IMG/VR virus record: IMGVR_UViG_3300023543_000254
Span: 1-23,244 of that record
DNA from: a virus
Lineage: Duplodnaviria; Heunggongvirae; Uroviricota; Caudoviricetes
Strand: one strand, 5' to 3'
Length of the DNA stretch: 23,244 nt
Of the stretch, positions 13,443 through 23,244 are shown one piece after another (the first letter of the stretch is position 1; each line of letters starts with the position of its first letter). The translations under genes were made by a program, and so were the position numbers. The notes below the pieces were generated by a model that worked only from the letters and a program-made list of their open reading frames with translations, searched no databases and had not been told where the DNA came from.

Positions 13443-13484
13443 TCACCTTAAAATTAAAATAACCATAAAACATTAGTAATCTAA

Positions 13485-13504
13485 AGAGGCGCTAGAGCGC
13501 CTCT
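13485..13504. terminator. Perfect 8-bp inverted repeat between convergent Q and ATPase genes, candidate bidirectional terminator
   Basis: agaggcgc-taga-gcgcctct read directly, flanked by U-rich sequence on both strands. Confidence 0.35.
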
Positions 13505-13514
13505 TCTAATTATC

Positions 13515-14822
13515 TCAACCTTCATAGAGAAGTTTTTTCTTACGTATCTCTTCACTAAATGTCTTGGAATTCAAGTCAATCAAATTAAGATCTCGAACTT
13601 TTCTAGATGCTGTATATTGACTAGTATCCAGCATATATGCCTCAAAAACTAAGCCATCAGCACCTTTCTTCAAAGTAACCCGAGACTGGACTAAATGCAC
13701 TAATCTTAAATCAATTAACTGGTTAATAGCATCCTTGACAGGGCCAGTCATTTTTTGATTAATTAGAAAAATATTACATTTTGCATCATTCAAACAAAAT
13801 GCCACAAGTTTTGTGAATGCTTCCTCCAAGGCAATACGATCATCATCAGCATCTAATTTAAATTCTTCACGCTTGATATCACCATATTCACCAGTAGCAA
13901 GATTCACATCTTCTGCACCAATTCGAGGACCTCTAGGATGATCTGGCCCTCTTTCTCTCGCATGGTTAATAGCTTTAGTAAATATCCCAATAAAGTCCCT
14001 AGTAACACCACCCGAAGCAATAATCAACCTATCTACTGCAGTCGTATTTAATAGTCCATTTACTGTGATAGGCGGCGTTTCTACCATTAGATTAGTGAGT
14101 ATTTTTTGCATAAACTGTTTTAAAGTTGCAAATTTTTCCAAAGAAATATCTATATTTATTTCTTTTGCATCATCACCAAGTTTAACACCAGTAGGAGGAT
14201 CTGTATGAATATACCATTCACTTCTATGCTTGATAGTACCAATTTTCAACCACAAACCATTTCCTTTGGCAACCCTATGAAAATAATCAATAACTTTAGC
14301 CTGATCACTTCTTCTAATATGATATAGATCATCAAGTATTAAATATGCCGGCCCTTCAGACAATTCGGAAAGCTTGTTAAAAAACCTTTGAAACTTAAGT
14401 ATATTTTGATGTAAGTATTCAGTTTTTAATGATTTATATCCTTCACTAATTTCTTTGGTACCTGTATTTCCTTTTTTAACTCCCACTCCTACATCTACTG
14501 GACCTTGCTTCAAGGAAGCATTACCAGAAGCTTCAAAACTTCTTGTGGAAGTTTCCTTTCTTTGCACATTAATTTCTTCTGGCTGCAAAAGTTTATTTTC
14601 TAAATCTTGAATGATGCTTTTGAGCTCACGGACAAGCTCATTTGTAGGATTTTTTTTGAAAGGTTTCCTTTCCGGCGCTCTACCAAAAATTCGATTCCAA
14701 AAAGTAGTTTTAGTAGCTGGGGTTAATGCAGCAGTTTCTAACCAAACCTCGAATTCTTGTAGGCTTTTAATAAGAACACTAATTAGGACATCAGGGTATG
14801 AATGACCTTTAAATGTCTCCAT
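13515..14822 (-). CDS. C-terminal segment of a P-loop ATPase (carries Walker B-like LILDD), AT-rich cargo
   Basis: 435-aa ORF in AT-rich DNA; hhhhDD motif (AYLILDDLYH) about 165 residues in; no Walker A of its own; upstream neighbour carries the Walker A in a different frame. Confidence 0.6.
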   Translation of the reverse strand: METFKGHSYPDVLISVLIKSLQEFEVWLETAALTPATKTTFWNRIFGRAPERKPFKKNPTNELVRELKSIIQDLENKLLQPEEINVQRKETSTRSFEASGNASLKQGPVDVGVGVKKGNTGTKEISEGYKSLKTEYLHQNILKFQRFFNKLSELSEGPAYLILDDLYHIRRSDQAKVIDYFHRVAKGNGLWLKIGTIKHRSEWYIHTDPPTGVKLGDDAKEINIDISLEKFATLKQFMQKILTNLMVETPPITVNGLLNTTAVDRLIIASGGVTRDFIGIFTKAINHARERGPDHPRGPRIGAEDVNLATGEYGDIKREEFKLDADDDRIALEEAFTKLVAFCLNDAKCNIFLINQKMTGPVKDAINQLIDLRLVHLVQSRVTLKKGADGLVFEAYMLDTSQYTASRKVRDLNLIDLNSKTFSEEIRKKKLLYEG

Positions 14823-14848
14823 ATCAACAAAAGAAATTGGTCTTCTAT

Positions 14849-15073
14849 CTATTGTAGATCTGCAACTACCTTCCTCAACAATGAGGACTTACCAGAGCCC
14901 CTTCTACCAAAAATCAAACTGTGCTGCTTGGCTTTCGATTGAGCAAGAACGCCAGGCGCGGGTTCTATGAATCTCTTGACATTTTCAGGCGTAGCCCTCA
15001 TAGCTTCATCACACAAAATGATCAAGTTATCTACTTGTTCATCTCTTAACTGAGATATTTCGTTTTTAGACAT
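14849..15073 (-). CDS. N-terminal segment of the same P-loop ATPase (Walker A GRRGSGKSSLL); probable frameshift-split gene
   Basis: 74-aa ORF with AAGGA RBS; Walker A at residues 56-63, then a stop; next ORF starts 27 nt downstream in the -1 frame. Confidence 0.55.
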   Translation of the reverse strand: MSKNEISQLRDEQVDNLIILCDEAMRATPENVKRFIEPAPGVLAQSKAKQHSLIFGRRGSGKSSLLRKVVADLQ

Positions 15074-15175
15074 TGGAAAATCCTTTTAGGAAAAAGCTCA
15101 AGCTATCAAGAATCCTTTATCCGAACAACTGTTTTAATTTATATATCTATCTGGTTCAGCGCGCGCTCGTATCCC

Positions 15176-15194
15176 CGCCACGCCTGCCCGCTTT
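15176..15194 (-). other. Candidate cos site (cohesive-end core)
   Basis: Minus strand reads ggcgtggcggggatacgag; first 13 nt identical to the 186 cos core as I recall it (GGCGTGGCGGGGA...), 14 of 19 match recalled P2 cos; orientation correct relative to Q; sits in a GC-rich island between AT-rich cargo blocks. Confidence 0.45.
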
Positions 15195-15239
15195 ATGTAG
15201 TGGTTTTCATGCAGGTGCATGATCTACGCAAAAGCCCGC

Positions 15240-15263
15240 CAGTTCTGGCGGGCCTTAGCGAAA
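15240..15263 (-). terminator. GC-rich hairpin followed by U-run on minus strand, candidate rho-independent terminator
   Basis: gcccgcc-agttct-ggcgggc with aaaa on the plus-strand 5' side (UUUU after the stem on the minus strand). Confidence 0.35.
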
Positions 15264-15526
15264 ACGATCCTCAAACGATCATGCAATCTCATGCAGCATA
15301 GACATGCACAGACGAGTAAAGCGAATCGGACCTTACGCAAGGTGAACTCCTCAGCGGGCATAATCAGTATGTCGGAAGATCTCTAAAAATAAATAATTCG
15401 GTTAACAGGTATGCTTACAAAAGCATATATTTGATTAAAAATCATGTAAGGGGGAGGATCTCAAACTGAATCGCCACGGGTTTTACAAATTTCGATAGTC
15501 TCTCTAACGTTTCGGCTGAGGTCAAA

Positions 15527-15952
15527 ATGAAAAGCTTTTACGTATTAATTTTAATTCTGGTTGCAAGCTTTGTTAGCGTCCCAGTTCAGGCGGTAACAGC
15601 TAAAAACTATGAGAAAGGAACTAAAGCTCAACAGAAATCAATATCTTACCTTTCATGTGCATTCTATGGCAGTAGCACACAATTAGATCCTAGCTACACG
15701 GAGCAAGTACCTACAGCCGATATCAAGATATTACAGAAAGCAGCTTACCACGCTTACAACGATGCGCTCTCATACTTTGGCTATGAGGAACCAGATCACG
15801 AACAACGCATAATTGATTATGCTGAATTTGTGGCGTCGCAAGAAGCTGTGTTATGGGATAAGCCGGGAATGAATGGAAAGCAGGTAACACTAATTGCTCG
15901 TTCTCTCTACAATGAGAGTAACTGTAACTTGTTACTGGACTCAATTAAGTAG
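15527..15952 (+). CDS. Small secreted/periplasmic protein of unknown function (signal peptide), AT-rich cargo
   Basis: 141-aa ORF; N-terminus MKSFYVLILILVASFVSVPVQA looks like a Sec signal peptide with AxA-like cleavage site; two Cys in mature part; TGAGG RBS. Confidence 0.65.
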   Translation: MKSFYVLILILVASFVSVPVQAVTAKNYEKGTKAQQKSISYLSCAFYGSSTQLDPSYTEQVPTADIKILQKAAYHAYNDALSYFGYEEPDHEQRIIDYAEFVASQEAVLWDKPGMNGKQVTLIARSLYNESNCNLLLDSIK

Positions 15953-16111
15953 GAAAAAGATGGTATTTTGCCCGTAGTTTCAACCTTAATCTCCGAACCT
16001 GTCGCAGAACGGGCGTTCACTCATCAAATAAACGCCACACCTAACGCCTCACTGTACTCGTTGTTCAACCTTGCTGACGCCAGAACCAAGTTCAGACGCC
16101 AGCAACTTTTC

Positions 16112-16345
16112 TTAATGCAGCCAGCTGTCGTCTTCCCACACCTTCTGCATAATCTTCATCACTTGTTTTCTTTCTTCGTCCAGTTGCAGTCCGGTCAGTT
16201 CCACACCGTTAGAGCTACCTTTGCGGATGCGAATTACCATTTTGGGATACAGGGGGCGCAGATTGCGGTAAAGCTCGGATTCAAGGGCGTCCAGGGTAGA
16301 CTGGCTAATCTTCTGCTCTTTATCGATCATTATTTCAATGCGCAT
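16112..16345 (-). CDS. dinI: DinI-like protein
   Basis: ORF track 16112..16417; ATG at 16345 with GAGGTGA RBS gives MRIEIMIDKEQKISQSTLDALESELYRNLRPLYPKMVIRIRKGSSNGVELTGLQLDEERKQVMKIMQKVWEDDSWL, which resembles E. coli DinI (MRIEVTIAKT...ALAGELSRRI...) in length and pattern. Confidence 0.8.
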   Translation of the reverse strand: MRIEIMIDKEQKISQSTLDALESELYRNLRPLYPKMVIRIRKGSSNGVELTGLQLDEERKQVMKIMQKVWEDDSWLH

Positions 16346-16355
16346 AAAGGTCACC

Positions 16356-16544
16356 TCAGCTGATGACATCCATTGAGCGGTTGTATTCGTGGGTTCTGAT
16401 TTTTGCCATGAGTTCATCAGTCAATTCAGAAACCCACTGCAGAGCCAGCCCCTTCTCTTCATCACTACACTCACTAGCCGCTACAAGCTTAAGAAAAAAA
16501 TCAATGCGCTGGAGCTTCAAAGACTCCAAAAAATAGTCCTGCAT
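16356..16544 (-). CDS. Small protein (62 aa) at head of LexA-controlled operon; possible Tum-like antirepressor
   Basis: ATG with strong AGGAGG RBS; 43 nt downstream of a perfect LexA box; function by position only. Confidence 0.55.
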   Translation of the reverse strand: MQDYFLESLKLQRIDFFLKLVAASECSDEEKGLALQWVSELTDELMAKIRTHEYNRSMDVIS

Positions 16545-16586
16545 CTTTCCTCCTATGACACCAAAGCAATACTGTATATATAACCA

Positions 16587-16602
16587 CTGTTTATATTTAC
16601 AG
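16587..16602. promoter_or_regulatory. LexA box (SOS operator) CTGT-N8-ACAG
   Basis: ctgtttatatttacag read directly, within an AT-rich promoter-like region upstream of the small-ORF/DinI-like operon. Confidence 0.6.
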
Positions 16603-16696
16603 TATATAATAATCTTACTGATGTAAAACGTTTTTTTACGTTCATCAGCCTGAAATGCCTGGTATTATTAAGAGCACGAATTGTTAACCCGCGTAA

Positions 16697-19069
16697 TTAA
16701 TACAGGTTCCGCCACTTATCATCTTCCTGCAAACGCTGGTTCCGATAGAAGATACGCAGGCCTGCTCCTGACGGAATACTGCCGCCGCGAAGGAGTAAAT
16801 CGACCTCTTTCTCGCTGCCATCAAATCCTCTGGACTTCAGTTCATAGACGAGCTGCTGTCGCTGATGGTCTGTAATTCGCTGTTTGTAGTCTTTACGCCG
16901 TTTCGGTTTCACCAGGCGTAACCTTGCAGCCAGTTCCCGGCGCTCTTTTTTGCTCATACTGTGCAGGTATTCGTGCAACTCCTTGTCATCCATGCGGGTA
17001 ATGTCCGTTCTGGTATCCCCATCAGCTGATTTGTCTTTCCCTTGTTGGTTCAAATTTTCAGCAAGGGGACAGTTATTGCCACGAGTCCAAGGGGCGCAAG
17101 CGCCCTGGTCGGCTGCCGCCTCCTGAACATCAACGGCCTTACGAACCATTTTCCACTTCACGGCATGAGTGCAGATCTTGCCCTCTGCAATAGGTGACCA
17201 GATGCCATAAATACGAATGCCGTGATCGCCATAGGCGGTCGGCTCTTCGTTGATTTCATAAGCGGTTCTGATGAGGTGATATTTGCGGGGAACCAGTACG
17301 CCGCCCTGCTTCATGATGTAGGTGGCAAAACAACCAGCATCAGCAGCAGCCAGGATGGCATCAAGGCGCGGGTTATCCAGTACCGGCGCACCTGCTTTTT
17401 TGTCCCCCTGTTGCCTTGCCGCCTGACCAGCCAGCAATCGCAGTTCACGGTAAGCCTGACGCCCCGGAATGCCAAAGAAGCGGAATTGCTGAACACGATG
17501 CAGAGACGCCCAGGCATTAACGTATTCAGCATTATCACGCAGGGATTTCCCCGTTTCCTTGCTGATCTCGCCAGCCAGACCACGCCCGTCAATGTTCTTA
17601 CTGATGTATTTCGCGATGTAGCTTGTTGGCGTACCTTTGCGCGGGTTAATCAACTCAGACTTAAAGCGCGGCCCAGTGTTATTGCCCAGTTCCTCGCGGT
17701 CTTCACGGATGGCAAACTTACGCAGTAATGCAGTGATGGCGCGGCGGTCTTTTTTGCGCATAAAACACAACAGGTGCCAGTGAACTGTACCGTCATGATG
17801 CGGCTCAGCCACCCGCACGCCATACCACCGCAATCCGGCTTTGTGCATCGCCTTACGAAATGCAGCAAACATGCCGACCAGATAATCACTGCTTTGTCTT
17901 ACCGTCGCATTTGTCCAAGTTGGGTTGGGCCTGCCATTATTTAGCGTGGAATGGAAACGTGACGGACAGGTGATGGTGTAGAAAACGGCGCAGTCACCGC
18001 GCATTTCCGCGATAAGCTCCAGGCCTTTAACACAGGCCATCATCTCATTGCGGCGATGCGCAGGGTTGCTGCTGCTGGCGTTTACCACATCCTCCATGTC
18101 CAGCGTGTCGCCGTCTTCGTTCACCAGTTCATGAGAACGAAAAAACTCCAGCGACTTACGGCGCTGCTCACGTTTATGCATCACGGCTTCATAGCTGACA
18201 TAGGGAGATGCTTTTTTGCTGACCAGGCAGACAGCACGCAACTGCTCTTCCCGCCATTCGCAACGCATCTTCCATAATTTCCGGTACCACCAGTCAGCGC
18301 ACAACATACGCGCCAGCGAACCCGGAATGAGTTCATAGGGCACGGGTTTACGGCGGTTTCTTTTCCGGCGGAGTTGCTCAAACGCAGGCGGGATGACATC
18401 CAGACGCAGGGTTTCCGCTGCCACCTTTTCCCATGTCTTGCGGATTTCTTCTGGCTTAACGTCATCGGTGACATACAAATCGCCACAAGCTGCATCAAGG
18501 CACATGCTCATATGCGCAGCTACCAGGGTGGACAGGCGTTTCACCTGATCCTGACTCATTTCAGGCAGGATCAGCAGGCCGTCCAGCCCTTCATGGCTTG
18601 CCATAAAGCGAAAAGAAGTGGATAGCTGACAGTCGCGTACATGCTCCAGCCGTTCCAGACATGGCTTAATCGTCTCACGCAAATAGCGGGAATAAGCCTT
18701 TGGCCTGCCCAGGCTGCTGAAGTATTCAATACGTTGCATCAGTGGCTTGCTGATATGGGAAGGCTGGGCATTAACGTCCGCCAGAATGACCATATCTGGA
18801 TTAAAACGCTGCTGCTCATGCGCCAGCTTTGCCCGACTAATGAGCTTATCCTGCTCCATTTCGCGCTGGACAGGATCACGGGATTCATTAAAGAAATAAC
18901 GCTCCCAGACCTGATCACTCAGTGCCTCGCGGCGCAGCTGTTCCTGCTCGTTATCGGCAGCGTACAGAGCGATCAGGTTTGAAAGCGCAGAAACTGAAGA
19001 TTGCTCTTCCGTCTCTACGTAAGGATTGATTGCTTTTTTCTCAGCATTCCAGGAATAGCTGTAGTTCAT
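16697..19069 (-). CDS. A: Replication initiation protein A (rolling-circle endonuclease)
   Basis: ORF track 16697..19120 (TTG); ATG at 19069 with GGAG upstream; contains HxH-like VHWHLL and tyrosine-rich YIAKYISK motifs expected for P2 gpA-type Rep proteins; size about 790 aa. Confidence 0.85.
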
Positions 19070-19899
19070 TACGCAATCTCCAGTTCGAGCTGTGAAGGCT
19101 GCAAACCATTCGACAGCCAATCAGAAACTGAAGGTGGGCGAACAGCTTCAATTGCACCTTTTAAAATTGCGCAACGGTTTTTCAGAATGACAGCTTTCAG
19201 CTCCTTTTCCGTCAGATTGCGCGAATACTCAGCCTCCTGAATAGCCCGCGTCAGCTCAGGATATTTGCTATTAAATTTGGGGACATTGCAGGCAAGATTT
19301 GTACTGTCGGCAGTCGCCAGTGGGTAATTTCCCAACACACGACCGTCAAGCATGCGCAAACCATGAACAGCTGTTTTGAAATTGTGTCGGCAATAAATTG
19401 CTTCAAAAGCGTCCTGCATACGACGATGCCAGTGCGCAGTTCTGATAGCCGCATATTCACCAGACGATCCAAAGCAGACACGAGGCCATTCACGACATAG
19501 CTCGATAAGCCGATCGATTGACTCGTGCAGATGCCAGACGGGAGTTGCCTTCCCGTAGAACATTTTCGGAACTTCGTTTATCAGGGCATCATTGTCACGT
19601 TCACCTCCGTCCACAACATCAGGAATGACAAAAAAAGCGACCTTAGGATGGTGGTAATAGTTCAGGAGCCATTTATAAAAATCACTCCAGTTAATTTTTA
19701 GCCCACGCACCCATGCAGAAAATGCGCCGTTATCAATGCCGACGACCTGAGCGTGCTGAATGGACGCCGCAATCTGATCTGGTCGTACATAGGAGACGAA
19801 AGCGCCAGCTCCGCTCACCGCAATACGATGAACGTCGCCAGCACTTCCCCAGACAGGCGTCCCATGGAAATGATGAATTCCGTGGTGCATTTCTTTCAC
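19069..19899 (-). CDS. Hypothetical protein (276 aa), translationally coupled between dam and A
   Basis: Start overlaps dam stop, stop overlaps A start (TAATG); no confident family call; weak resemblance of VGIDNGAF to the TGT/DpdA substrate motif (TDSGGFQ). Confidence 0.7.
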
Positions 19900-22677: not shown

Positions 22678-23244
22678 ATGGATTTTAGTCAAGGTGGAAA
22701 GAAAGCTATCGAAAGGATGGTTGAAGCCTATGGGTTCACTACAAGACAGGCGTTATGTGAACAACTAGGCATATCAAAAAGCAGTCTTGCTACACGCTAC
22801 ATGAGAGATTCATTCCCTTCTGATTGGGTTATTCAGTGCGCGCTCGAAACAGGAGTAAACATAAAGTGGCTGGTAACAGGCTTACCTCCTAAACATGAAT
22901 ATTTAACGTCTGACATCATCAATATTCAAAAAATAAAATTGATTGATGGAGTGCTATTGGATGCAGGAACACTAATGTTTGACAAAGTGTTCATTCCTGA
23001 TGGTTTATCATCACCATCTGTGATATCAAACGGGAATAACTCTTATTTTATTGAGAGGGATTTCACAGATGTAGTTGATGGTGATTGGTTAATCTCCATT
23101 GATGGAAAGCATTCTATAAAACAAGTTATTAGAATTCCTGATAATAAAGTTAAGATTAACTATGGGAATATCATTGTTGATATGAACATTAATGACCTTG
23201 TATTCATCGGCAAAGTTATAGCAGAATTCAAGATAAGAGGCTAA
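22678..23244 (+). CDS. cI: CI immunity repressor (186 CI-like)
   Basis: ORF track 22573..23244; ATG at 22678 with AAGGTGA RBS gives a protein of about 188 aa, HTH-like TTRQALCEQLGISKSSLATRYM, divergent from apl; stop is the last codon of the window. Confidence 0.7.
   Translation: MDFSQGGKKAIERMVEAYGFTTRQALCEQLGISKSSLATRYMRDSFPSDWVIQCALETGVNIKWLVTGLPPKHEYLTSDIINIQKIKLIDGVLLDAGTLMFDKVFIPDGLSSPSVISNGNNSYFIERDFTDVVDGDWLISIDGKHSIKQVIRIPDNKVKINYGNIIVDMNINDLVFIGKVIAEFKIRG

What the first reader, a model, noticed from the sequence alone, without database searches (positions are those of the whole stretch)
16112..16640. LexA-box-controlled small-ORF plus DinI-like operon: probable SOS induction module of 186 type
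A perfect CTGT-N8-ACAG LexA box lies in the promoter region of a two-gene minus-strand operon: a 62-aa ORF with a strong RBS, then a DinI-like protein. In coliphage 186 the LexA-repressed tum operon near the right genome end encodes the Tum antirepressor that inactivates CI; my recollection is that this operon also contains DinI-related sequence. This arrangement suggests the prophage is SOS-inducible through an antirepressor rather than repressor cleavage, and the 62-aa protein is a candidate minimal antirepressor.
Basis: partly seen in the sequence, partly recalled or inferred. Interest (0 to 1): 0.55.

Follow-up and report, generated by a model that had tools for sequence, protein, structure and literature searches.

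The report
Split tum SOS-induction operon of prophage
This is the known DNA-damage switch of Fels-2/186-type prophages, in which a LexA-repressed promoter drives a 62-residue antirepressor and a DinI-like protein; it is real but already described, although databases still call the small gene hypothetical.

Summary
The window holds one perfect LexA box, at 16587-16602. It overlaps a promoter built like 186 p95. That promoter drives a 62-aa ORF (16356-16544, minus strand) and a 77-aa DinI-family gene (16112-16345, minus strand). Both lie just downstream of replication gene A in a P2/186-like E. coli prophage whose repressor is a 186-type CI without a peptidase domain.

The 62-aa protein is homologous to the N-terminal 44 residues of 186 Tum (hhalign probability 95%, E 3e-8; shared PHROG families). 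The 77-aa protein is 40% identical to the C-terminal DinI-like half of Tum. The module is therefore the split form of tum, named tumA/tumB in phage PSP3.

The 62-aa protein is 61/62 identical to Fels-2 STM2728 and to E. coli HS ECHS_RS04495. A 2025 paper deleted ECHS_RS04495 as "tum". That deletion, and separately lexA(Ind-), abolished mitomycin C induction. The Fels-2 operon is induced 5-15 fold by a mutagen.

Two minor open points remain. The identical antirepressor occurs with 17 divergent CI types, and its divergence tracks the CI DNA-binding domain. The role of the DinI-like partner is also unsettled.

The parts
16617..16649 (-). Imperfect hairpin after the stop of replication gene A. It is a probable terminator of the early operon, and its 3' arm contains the -35 hexamer of the SOS promoter.
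   Evidence: RNA fold of window:16600-16700:- gives a stem CUGAUGAACGU/ACGUU..CAUCAG (z -1.98). It is nearly invariant in 55 distinct upstream variants. Its function is inferred by analogy with the terminator-like palindromes upstream of the Gifsy LexA boxes.
16622..16627 (-). -35 hexamer TTTACA of the p95-like SOS promoter.
   Evidence: Read from the sequence. A 17-nt spacer separates it from TACTGT, the same layout as the annotated 186 p95 (TTCACA-18-TACTGT). It is invariant across 55 upstream variants. The generic promoter scan did not call it, because TACTGT matches only 3 of 6 positions of TATAAT.
16599..16604 (-). -10 hexamer TACTGT, identical to the left arm of the LexA box.
   Evidence: The -10 hexamer is identical to the one annotated for 186 p95. 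LexA binding would therefore occlude the -10.
16585..16604 (.). LexA operator (SOS box) A: TACTGTAAATATAAACAGTG on the operon strand, with a perfect CTGT-N8-ACAG core at 16587-16602.
   Evidence: it is the only match in the window, and 0 of 100 shuffles match the 20-mer. The core is unchanged in all but a handful of 65 upstream variants. Divergent TumA relatives keep a CTG-N10-CAG palindrome (a perfect CTGT-N8-ACAG in 16) 33-57 nt upstream in 19 of 23 loci.
16570..16589 (.). Possible second, imperfect LexA-like box B (core CTGT-ATATATAA-CCAC, 16572-16587), abutting box A with a 1-nt overlap.
   Evidence: It has two core mismatches, which is not significant alone (107 such matches against 95 expected). 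Its end tetramers are conserved while its central spacer is hypervariable across 55 variants. MAFFT places the single LexA box of 186 and PSP3 opposite this box. Its function is uncertain.
16549..16554 (-). Shine-Dalgarno sequence AGGAGG of the 62-aa gene.
   Evidence: Read from the sequence. It is invariant in the upstream variants.
16356..16544 (-). tumA-like gene encoding a 62-aa acidic antirepressor (pI 4.6, predicted helical hairpin).
   Evidence: PHROG 698 at E 3.6e-38, sharing PHROG 8554 and 1993 with the N-terminus of 186 Tum. hhalign of a 30-sequence family profile against 186 Tum gives probability 95.1%, E 3.2e-8, residues 3-44 aligned to 3-44. It is 61/62 identical to Fels-2 STM2728 and to E. 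coli HS ECHS_RS04495, whose deletion blocks induction. AlphaFold2 pLDDT is 88, with helices 2-23 and 28-61.
16112..16345 (-). tumB-like gene encoding a 77-aa DinI-family protein. Its own GAGGTGA ribosome-binding site overlaps the tumA stop codon.
   Evidence: Pfam DinI at E 5.4e-23. It is 40% identical to 186 Tum residues 71-145, 77% identical to PSP3 TumB and 99% identical to the Fels-2 DinI-family protein. Its start corresponds to the internal GTG start that 186 annotates for the truncated Tum that 'modulates SOS induction'.
16071..16105 (-). Conserved stem-loop 6 nt after the tumB stop codon. It is the probable 3' end or partial terminator of the operon, in the position of 186 t95a.
   Evidence: A stem of 11+4 bp forms on the operon-strand RNA. 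Six of 10 consensus pairs show compensatory changes across 11 variants. There is no U tract on the operon strand, so terminator function is inferred.
22678..23244 (+). cI, encoding the 188-aa 186-type immunity repressor that is the presumed target of the antirepressor.
   Evidence: Pfam Phage_CI_repr at E 1e-28 and Phage_CI_C at E 1.7e-26, with no peptidase domain. It is 30% identical to 186 CI, E 2e-31.

Best explanation
The region is the SOS-induction operon of a Fels-2/186-type (Peduoviridae) prophage, in the split tumA/tumB form.

In the lysogen, host LexA binds the operator at 16585-16604, which overlaps the -10 hexamer of a p95-like promoter, and keeps the operon off. DNA damage activates RecA and LexA cleaves itself. 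The promoter then fires and produces the 62-aa acidic helical-hairpin protein (TumA-like) and the 77-aa DinI-like protein (TumB-like).

The 62-aa protein binds the non-cleavable 186-type CI repressor and stops it binding its operators. This derepresses the early lytic promoter and induces the prophage. The DinI-like protein is an accessory. It most likely modulates RecA filament activity and so the timing or strength of induction.

Shown here: the sequence anatomy, the homologies and the conservation. Shown in the literature for near-identical or homologous systems: LexA dependence, the requirement for the small gene, and the antirepressor activity of 186 Tum. Inferred: that this particular CI is the target, that binding is through the CI N-terminal domain, and the role of the DinI-like protein.
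For: The LexA box is unique in the window and significant as a 20-mer.

The promoter layout is the same as the annotated 186 p95. It is almost invariant in 55-65 natural variants, whereas the 5' UTR varies.

The 62-aa protein matches the N-terminus of 186 Tum by profile. The 77-aa protein matches the DinI-like C-terminus of Tum.

PSP3 annotates the same arrangement as tumA ('UV induction of prophage') and tumB. PMC3121763 states that Fels-2 and PSP3 carry tum split in two and that the PSP3 upstream gene carries the antirepressor activity.

In PMC12055606, deletion of ECHS_RS04495 (61/62 identical, with the same promoter) or lexA(Ind-) abolishes mitomycin C induction of the E. coli HS prophage.

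In PMC2225428, the Fels-2 operon STM2726-2727-2728 is induced 5.5-14.8 fold by the mutagen MX.

CI is of 186 type and lacks a peptidase domain.

Divergent TumA relatives keep the LexA box in 19 of 23 loci, yet most have no DinI gene next to them. The small gene plus the box is therefore the conserved core.
Against: Nothing was tested on this exact prophage. Its CI is a rare immunity type, only 47% identical to the CI of E. coli HS and 30% identical to 186 CI, so sensitivity to the antirepressor is assumed.

Direct binding of a split-form TumA to CI has not been published. The PSP3 result is a personal communication cited second-hand, and I could not read Bunny et al. 2002.

In the HS experiment, an in-frame deletion of the upstream gene could also lower expression of the downstream DinI-like gene. 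The two genes are only 10 nt apart, and the downstream ribosome-binding site overlaps the upstream stop codon.

BLASTP finds no similarity between the 62-aa protein and Tum. The family-invariant Trp37 is not conserved in 186 Tum or PSP3 TumA.
Confidence: 0.88

Rival explanations
1. The two proteins work only together. The 62-aa protein and the DinI-like protein would form a complex equivalent to the fused 146-aa Tum of 186, and neither alone would inactivate CI.
For: In 186 the two parts are one polypeptide. According to the record's notes, only full-length Tum 'inhibits CI DNA binding', while the truncated DinI-like products only 'modulate' induction. In this window's lineage the two genes are always adjacent and 10 nt apart. 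The HS deletion could have been polar on the downstream gene.
Against: Most divergent TumA relatives with a LexA box have no detectable DinI gene beside them. The PSP3 upstream gene alone is reported to carry the activity. Within loci sharing an identical TumA, TumB varies (16 protein variants, down to 84% identity), which argues against a tight obligate interface. In Gifsy prophages, non-polar dinI deletions had no significant effect on induction.
Confidence: 0.08
2. The operon mainly tunes the host SOS response through the DinI-like protein. The 62-aa protein would have some other role, such as a regulator of another phage or host function, and would not act on CI.
For: Databases give the 62-aa protein no function (no Pfam family, PHROG 698 'unknown function', RefSeq 'hypothetical protein'). 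The identical protein sits next to 17 different CI types, which could mean it does not read CI at all.
Against: The protein is homologous to the antirepressor half of Tum. Loss of induction in the E. coli HS tum deletion shows the gene is needed for the lytic switch. Divergence of TumA types correlates with the CI N-terminal domain (Mantel r 0.65).
Confidence: 0.03
3. The LexA box is a chance or decayed site, and the operon in this particular prophage is no longer SOS-controlled.
For: The bare 16-nt core occurs by chance in 36 of 100 shuffles. A few natural variants carry a mutated core. The neighbouring cargo gene is frameshifted in this window, which hints at some decay.
Against: The 20-mer match was never reached in shuffles. 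The box, the -35 and the spacer are identical to those of the experimentally LexA-dependent E. coli HS prophage. The region is 100% identical in several other complete E. coli genomes.
Confidence: 0.01

Closest known systems
Coliphage 186 SOS operon (p95-tum-orf97); Tum antirepressor (Lamont 1989; Brumby 1996; Shearwin 1998)
   Same: It sits in the same place, downstream of gene A near the right genome end. The promoter architecture is the same, with the LexA box overlapping a TACTGT -10. The N-terminal module is homologous (hhalign 95%) and so is the DinI-like module (40% identity). The target repressor is the same kind of CI.
   Different: In 186 the two modules are fused into one 146-aa protein, with internal starts that also yield the DinI-like part alone. 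Here they are two genes in different reading frames. The window has no orf97 homologue. The window also has an extra imperfect LexA-like box.
Phage PSP3 tumA/tumB
   Same: It has the same split arrangement, annotated as tumA (60 aa, 'UV induction of prophage') followed by tumB (DinI-like, 77% identical to the window's protein). It has a single LexA box and a TACTGT -10.
   Different: PSP3 TumA is only marginally similar to the window's 62-aa protein (hhalign E 0.003, probability 10%). In PSP3 tumB is in frame with tumA, 3 nt after a TAG stop; here the gap is 10 nt and the frame differs.
Salmonella Fels-2 STM2728/STM2726.1 and E. coli HS prophage DuoHS 'tum' (ECHS_RS04495)
   Same: These are essentially the same module. 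The 62-aa protein is 61/62 identical, the DinI-like protein is 99% identical, and the promoter and LexA box are the same. The requirement for the small gene and for cleavable LexA (HS), and damage induction of the operon (Fels-2), have been shown experimentally.
   Different: The CI repressor differs (47% identity to the HS CI). Fels-2 carries a further 243-aa ORF (STM2726, the same length as 186 orf97) downstream, where the window carries other cargo.
Gifsy-1/2/3 dinI-gfoA/gftA operons (Lemire et al. 2011) and N15 AntC
   Same: These are LexA-controlled small antirepressors that inactivate non-cleavable repressors. In the Gifsy prophages the antirepressor is co-transcribed with a dinI homologue.
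   Different: The gene order is reversed (dinI first). The antirepressors and repressors belong to unrelated families, and the phages are lambdoid.
E. coli DinI
   Same: The 77-aa protein is a full-length member of the Pfam DinI family and is LexA-controlled.
   Different: It is phage-encoded and paired with an antirepressor. Its effect on RecA has not been tested.

Membership tests
186-type LexA-controlled Tum antirepressor module (split tumA/tumB form) | LexA operator overlapping the promoter of the operon | tested here: met
   A 20-mer with 17/20 matches to consensus and a perfect core lies at 16585-16604 and overlaps the -10 TACTGT. LexA binding itself was not testable.
186-type LexA-controlled Tum antirepressor module (split tumA/tumB form) | Protein homologous to the N-terminal (non-DinI) part of 186 Tum | tested here: met
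   hhalign probability 95.1%, E 3.2e-8, residues 3-44. The proteins give reciprocal hits to PHROG 698, 8554 and 1993. BLASTP alone is negative.
186-type LexA-controlled Tum antirepressor module (split tumA/tumB form) | DinI-like module immediately following, as a fused domain or a separate gene | tested here: met
   Pfam DinI at E 5.4e-23. It is 40% identical to Tum residues 71-145.
186-type LexA-controlled Tum antirepressor module (split tumA/tumB form) | Location downstream of replication gene A, and a cognate 186-type CI without an autocleavage domain | tested here: met
   Gene A lies at 16697-19120 directly upstream. CI has Phage_CI_repr plus Phage_CI_C and no S24 peptidase domain.
186-type LexA-controlled Tum antirepressor module (split tumA/tumB form) | The protein binds CI, blocks operator binding, and is required for SOS induction | not testable with these tools
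   This is published for 186 Tum (Shearwin 1998, cited). The requirement is published for the 61/62-identical E. coli HS gene.
DinI family (Pfam PF06183) | Full-length match above the curated threshold | tested here: met
   81.5 bits against a cut-off of 24.2, with profile positions 1-63 of 63 matched.
DinI family (Pfam PF06183) | Binding to RecA filaments and modulation of the SOS response | not testable with these tools
   This rests only on family annotation and on the 186 record note 'modulates SOS induction'.

The most novel reading that the evidence does not exclude
One invariant 62-aa antirepressor may act as a 'master key'. It would inactivate many heteroimmune CI repressors of Fels-2-like prophages by binding their conserved N-terminal helix-turn-helix domain, so that heteroimmune P2-like prophages in one cell, or across Escherichia, Klebsiella and Salmonella, are co-induced by one another's TumA.

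The basis is as follows. The identical protein is found with 17 CI clusters of under 80% identity. These share 74% mean identity in the N-terminal domain but only 34% in the C-terminal domain. Across seven TumA types, TumA divergence tracks the CI N-terminal domain (Mantel r 0.65) much more than the C-terminal domain (r 0.21).

Shared ancestry and modular recombination could produce the same pattern without any such binding.
Probability: 0.4. Interest if true: 0.4.

Novelty: already known. Interest (0 to 1): 0.15.

Why it matters
The finding has little value as a discovery. The split tum arrangement was noted for Fels-2 and PSP3 two decades ago, and the near-identical gene was shown genetically to be required for induction in E. 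coli HS in 2025.

Its practical value lies in annotation. The 62-aa gene has no Pfam family. It is 'unknown function' in PHROGs and 'hypothetical protein' in RefSeq, although the module is present in about a fifth of complete E. coli genomes (1126 of 5426). It marks a P2-like prophage as SOS-inducible, unlike the classically non-inducible P2. Transferring the name would improve predictions of which prophages respond to DNA-damaging antibiotics.

Tried and rejected
- Pairwise BLASTP of the 62-aa ORF against 186 Tum found no alignment. Profile methods were needed.
- The generic sigma-70 and terminator scan found nothing in 15900-16800. The promoter was identified by comparison with the annotated 186 p95 instead. 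The -10 hexamer TACTGT matches only 3 of 6 consensus positions.
- A Foldseek search of the AlphaFold2 model against the PDB gave only generic helical hairpins, the best at E 2.3.
- Bunny et al. 2002, the primary source for split tum in Fels-2, is not held. I relied on its citation in PMC3121763.
- A literature search for 'TumA/TumB' returned only unrelated hits.
- Rfam found no RNA family in 15400-17000.
- PADLOC found nothing convincing for the neighbouring cargo ORFs.
- I considered stop-codon read-through that would fuse the two ORFs and rejected it. The tumB ATG is 13 nt from the first base of the tumA stop codon, so the frames differ. In PSP3 the two genes are in frame.
- I considered the 101-aa ORF (16112-16417) as the real DinI gene and rejected it. 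All annotated homologues use the 77-aa start, and the Pfam match begins at residue 14 of the 77-aa form.
- The apparent purifying selection on tumA (20 DNA alleles, 2 proteins) is not usable. The loci had been selected for protein identity.

Full report
**What is in the sequence**

The window is a P2/186-like (Peduoviridae) prophage of E. coli. The 1.3 kb around the finding is 100% identical to several complete E. coli chromosomes. The minus strand carries the 807-aa replication gene A (16697-19120).

Downstream of A, on the same strand, the features run in this order:
- an imperfect hairpin (16617-16649)
- a -35 hexamer TTTACA (16622-16627)
- a 17-nt spacer
- a -10 hexamer TACTGT (16599-16604)
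- a strong Shine-Dalgarno sequence AGGAGG (16549-16554)
- a 62-aa ORF (16356-16544)
- a 77-aa ORF, starting 10 nt later in another frame (16112-16345)
- a stem-loop (16071-16105)

**Is the box more than chance?**

The 16-nt core alone is weak evidence: there is one match, and 36 of 100 shuffles have at least one. The 20-nt LexA consensus with up to three mismatches matches only here, and no shuffle of 100 gives a match.

Conservation is stronger evidence. In 80 IMG/VR loci plus reference phages, the hairpin, the -35, the spacer and the box are almost invariant over 55-65 distinct upstream variants. The 5' UTR and the middle of a second, imperfect box (CTGT-N8-CCAC, 16572-16587) vary freely.

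Relatives of the small protein that are only 35-46% identical still carry a CTG-N10-CAG palindrome (a perfect CTGT-N8-ACAG in 16 of them) 33-57 nt upstream of their start codon in 19 of 23 loci.

**What the two proteins are**

The 77-aa protein is a full-length DinI-family member (Pfam E 5.4e-23). It is 40% identical to residues 71-145 of 186 Tum (E 2e-23).

The 62-aa protein has no Pfam family, and BLASTP finds nothing against Tum. Profiles link the two:
- The 62-aa protein hits PHROG 698 (E 3.6e-38), 8554 and 1993. The N-terminus of Tum hits 1993 (E 1e-22), 8554 and 698 (E 2.7e-5), over the same profile positions.
- A 30-sequence family profile (alignment A1, built) aligns to Tum residues 3-44 with hhalign probability 95.1%, E 3.2e-8.

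AlphaFold2 predicts a helical hairpin for the 62-aa protein (helices 2-23 and 28-61, pLDDT 88). No informative structural neighbour was found. The protein is acidic (pI 4.6).

The window therefore carries the two halves of 186 Tum as separate genes. The 186 record annotates an internal GTG start with its own ribosome-binding site at exactly the point where the window's DinI-like gene begins. It describes that product as modulating SOS induction.

**The target**

CI (22678-23244) has the two Pfam domains of 186 CI and no peptidase domain. It is 30% identical to 186 CI. An Apl-like ORF and a CII (CP76) homologue lie in the 186 order. The repressor is thus of the type that an antirepressor inactivates, not the type that RecA-stimulated self-cleavage inactivates.

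**What is already known**

- PSP3 annotates this arrangement as tumA ('similar to 5' end 186 tum; UV induction of prophage') and tumB ('similar to dinI and 3' end of 186 tum').
- Lemire et al. 2011 (PMC3121763) state that Tum looks like an antirepressor fused to DinI. They add that Fels-2 and PSP3 have tum split in two, and that in PSP3 the upstream gene carries the antirepressor activity.
- The window's 62-aa protein is 61/62 identical to Fels-2 STM2728. The Fels-2 operon STM2726-2727-2728 is induced 5.5-14.8 fold by the mutagen MX and is listed with the LexA regulon (PMC2225428).
- The most direct evidence comes from the Phollow study (PMC12055606). It deleted 'tum', locus tag ECHS_RS04495, in the P2-like prophage DuoHS of E. 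coli HS. The tum deletion and lexA(Ind-) each abolished lysis and virion formation after mitomycin C.
- ECHS_RS04495 is the 62-aa 'hypothetical protein' lying between the replication endonuclease and the DinI-like gene. It differs from the window's protein at one residue (T50S) and has the same promoter and box.

**Mechanism and confidence**

The best explanation (confidence 0.88) runs as follows. LexA occludes the -10. DNA damage removes LexA. TumA is made and inactivates CI. TumB, the DinI-like protein, is an accessory modulator.

The main rival is that both proteins are needed as a complex (0.08). Three points weaken it: most divergent TumA relatives with a LexA box have no DinI gene beside them, the PSP3 report assigns the activity to the upstream gene, and TumB varies within loci that share an identical TumA.

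Nothing has been tested on this exact prophage or this exact CI.

**Small extensions beyond the literature**

The identical 62-aa protein occurs with 17 CI clusters of under 80% identity. These share 74% mean identity in the N-terminal helix-turn-helix domain but only 34% in the C-terminal domain.

Over 63 TumA-CI pairs of seven TumA types, TumA identity correlates with CI N-terminal identity (Mantel r 0.65) much more than with C-terminal identity (r 0.21). This fits an antirepressor that binds the DNA-binding domain and could act across immunity types. Shared ancestry and modular recombination could give the same pattern, so it remains a hypothesis.

**Verdict**

The system is already known. 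Interest is low, apart from the annotation gap: there is no Pfam family, PHROGs lists 'unknown function', and RefSeq calls the gene 'hypothetical protein', although the module is present in 1126 of 5426 complete E. coli genomes.

Noticed in passing
window 16071-16105: A stem-loop starts 6 nt after the tumB stop codon. It is conserved in related prophages, with compensatory changes in 6 of 10 pairs (three or four different stem sequences). It is followed by a conserved GGTTGAACAACGAG but by no U tract on the operon strand. It marks the point where synteny with other prophages ends.
   Followed up: partly
window 13450-16040: The stretch between the portal gene and tumB is a cargo hotspot. The 2 kb downstream of tumB falls into 44 unrelated clusters among 77 loci that share the identical tumA. 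The window's own content was not seen in any of the other 76 loci.
   Followed up: partly
window 13515-15073 (minus strand): A P-loop ATPase cargo gene is split into a 74-aa ORF carrying the Walker A motif (14849-15073) and a 435-aa ORF (13515-14822) in another frame. E. coli ECO2947 has one extra base across this 2,051-base stretch and a single 519-aa CDS. The window copy is therefore frameshifted, or the base is a sequencing error. There were only weak ORC/CDC6-like and AAA hits, and no PADLOC system.
   Followed up: partly
window 15527-15952 (plus strand): A 141-aa ORF with an N-terminal signal-peptide-like segment lies convergent to the tum operon. It has no Pfam or PADLOC family and is 'hypothetical protein' in RefSeq.
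   Followed up: no
window 16570-16589: A second, imperfect LexA-like box abuts the perfect one with a 1-nt overlap. Its end tetramers are conserved while its centre is the most variable stretch of the whole upstream region. It occupies the position, relative to the ribosome-binding site, of the single LexA box of 186 and PSP3. From memory, this tandem layout resembles the double SOS boxes of colicin promoters; I did not check that.
   Followed up: partly
loci L091-L111 (IMG/VR relatives): Divergent TumA-family proteins (68-72 aa) from phages without an adjacent DinI gene carry a conserved glycine-rich C-terminal tail ending in LQ (for example KKNPQ-GG-SGGG-LQ). The window's protein lacks this tail.
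   Followed up: no
window 19069-19899 (minus strand): A 276-aa ORF between the Dam methylase and gene A has no Pfam or PADLOC family. It occupies the place of the PAPS-reductase-like orf of 186.
   Followed up: no
L086 15347-16301 (E. coli RM10466): In a genome with an identical tum region, cI is followed directly by an AAA-family ATPase gene where 186 has int and E. coli HS has a small ORF then int. This suggests a second variable cargo site next to cI.
   Followed up: no
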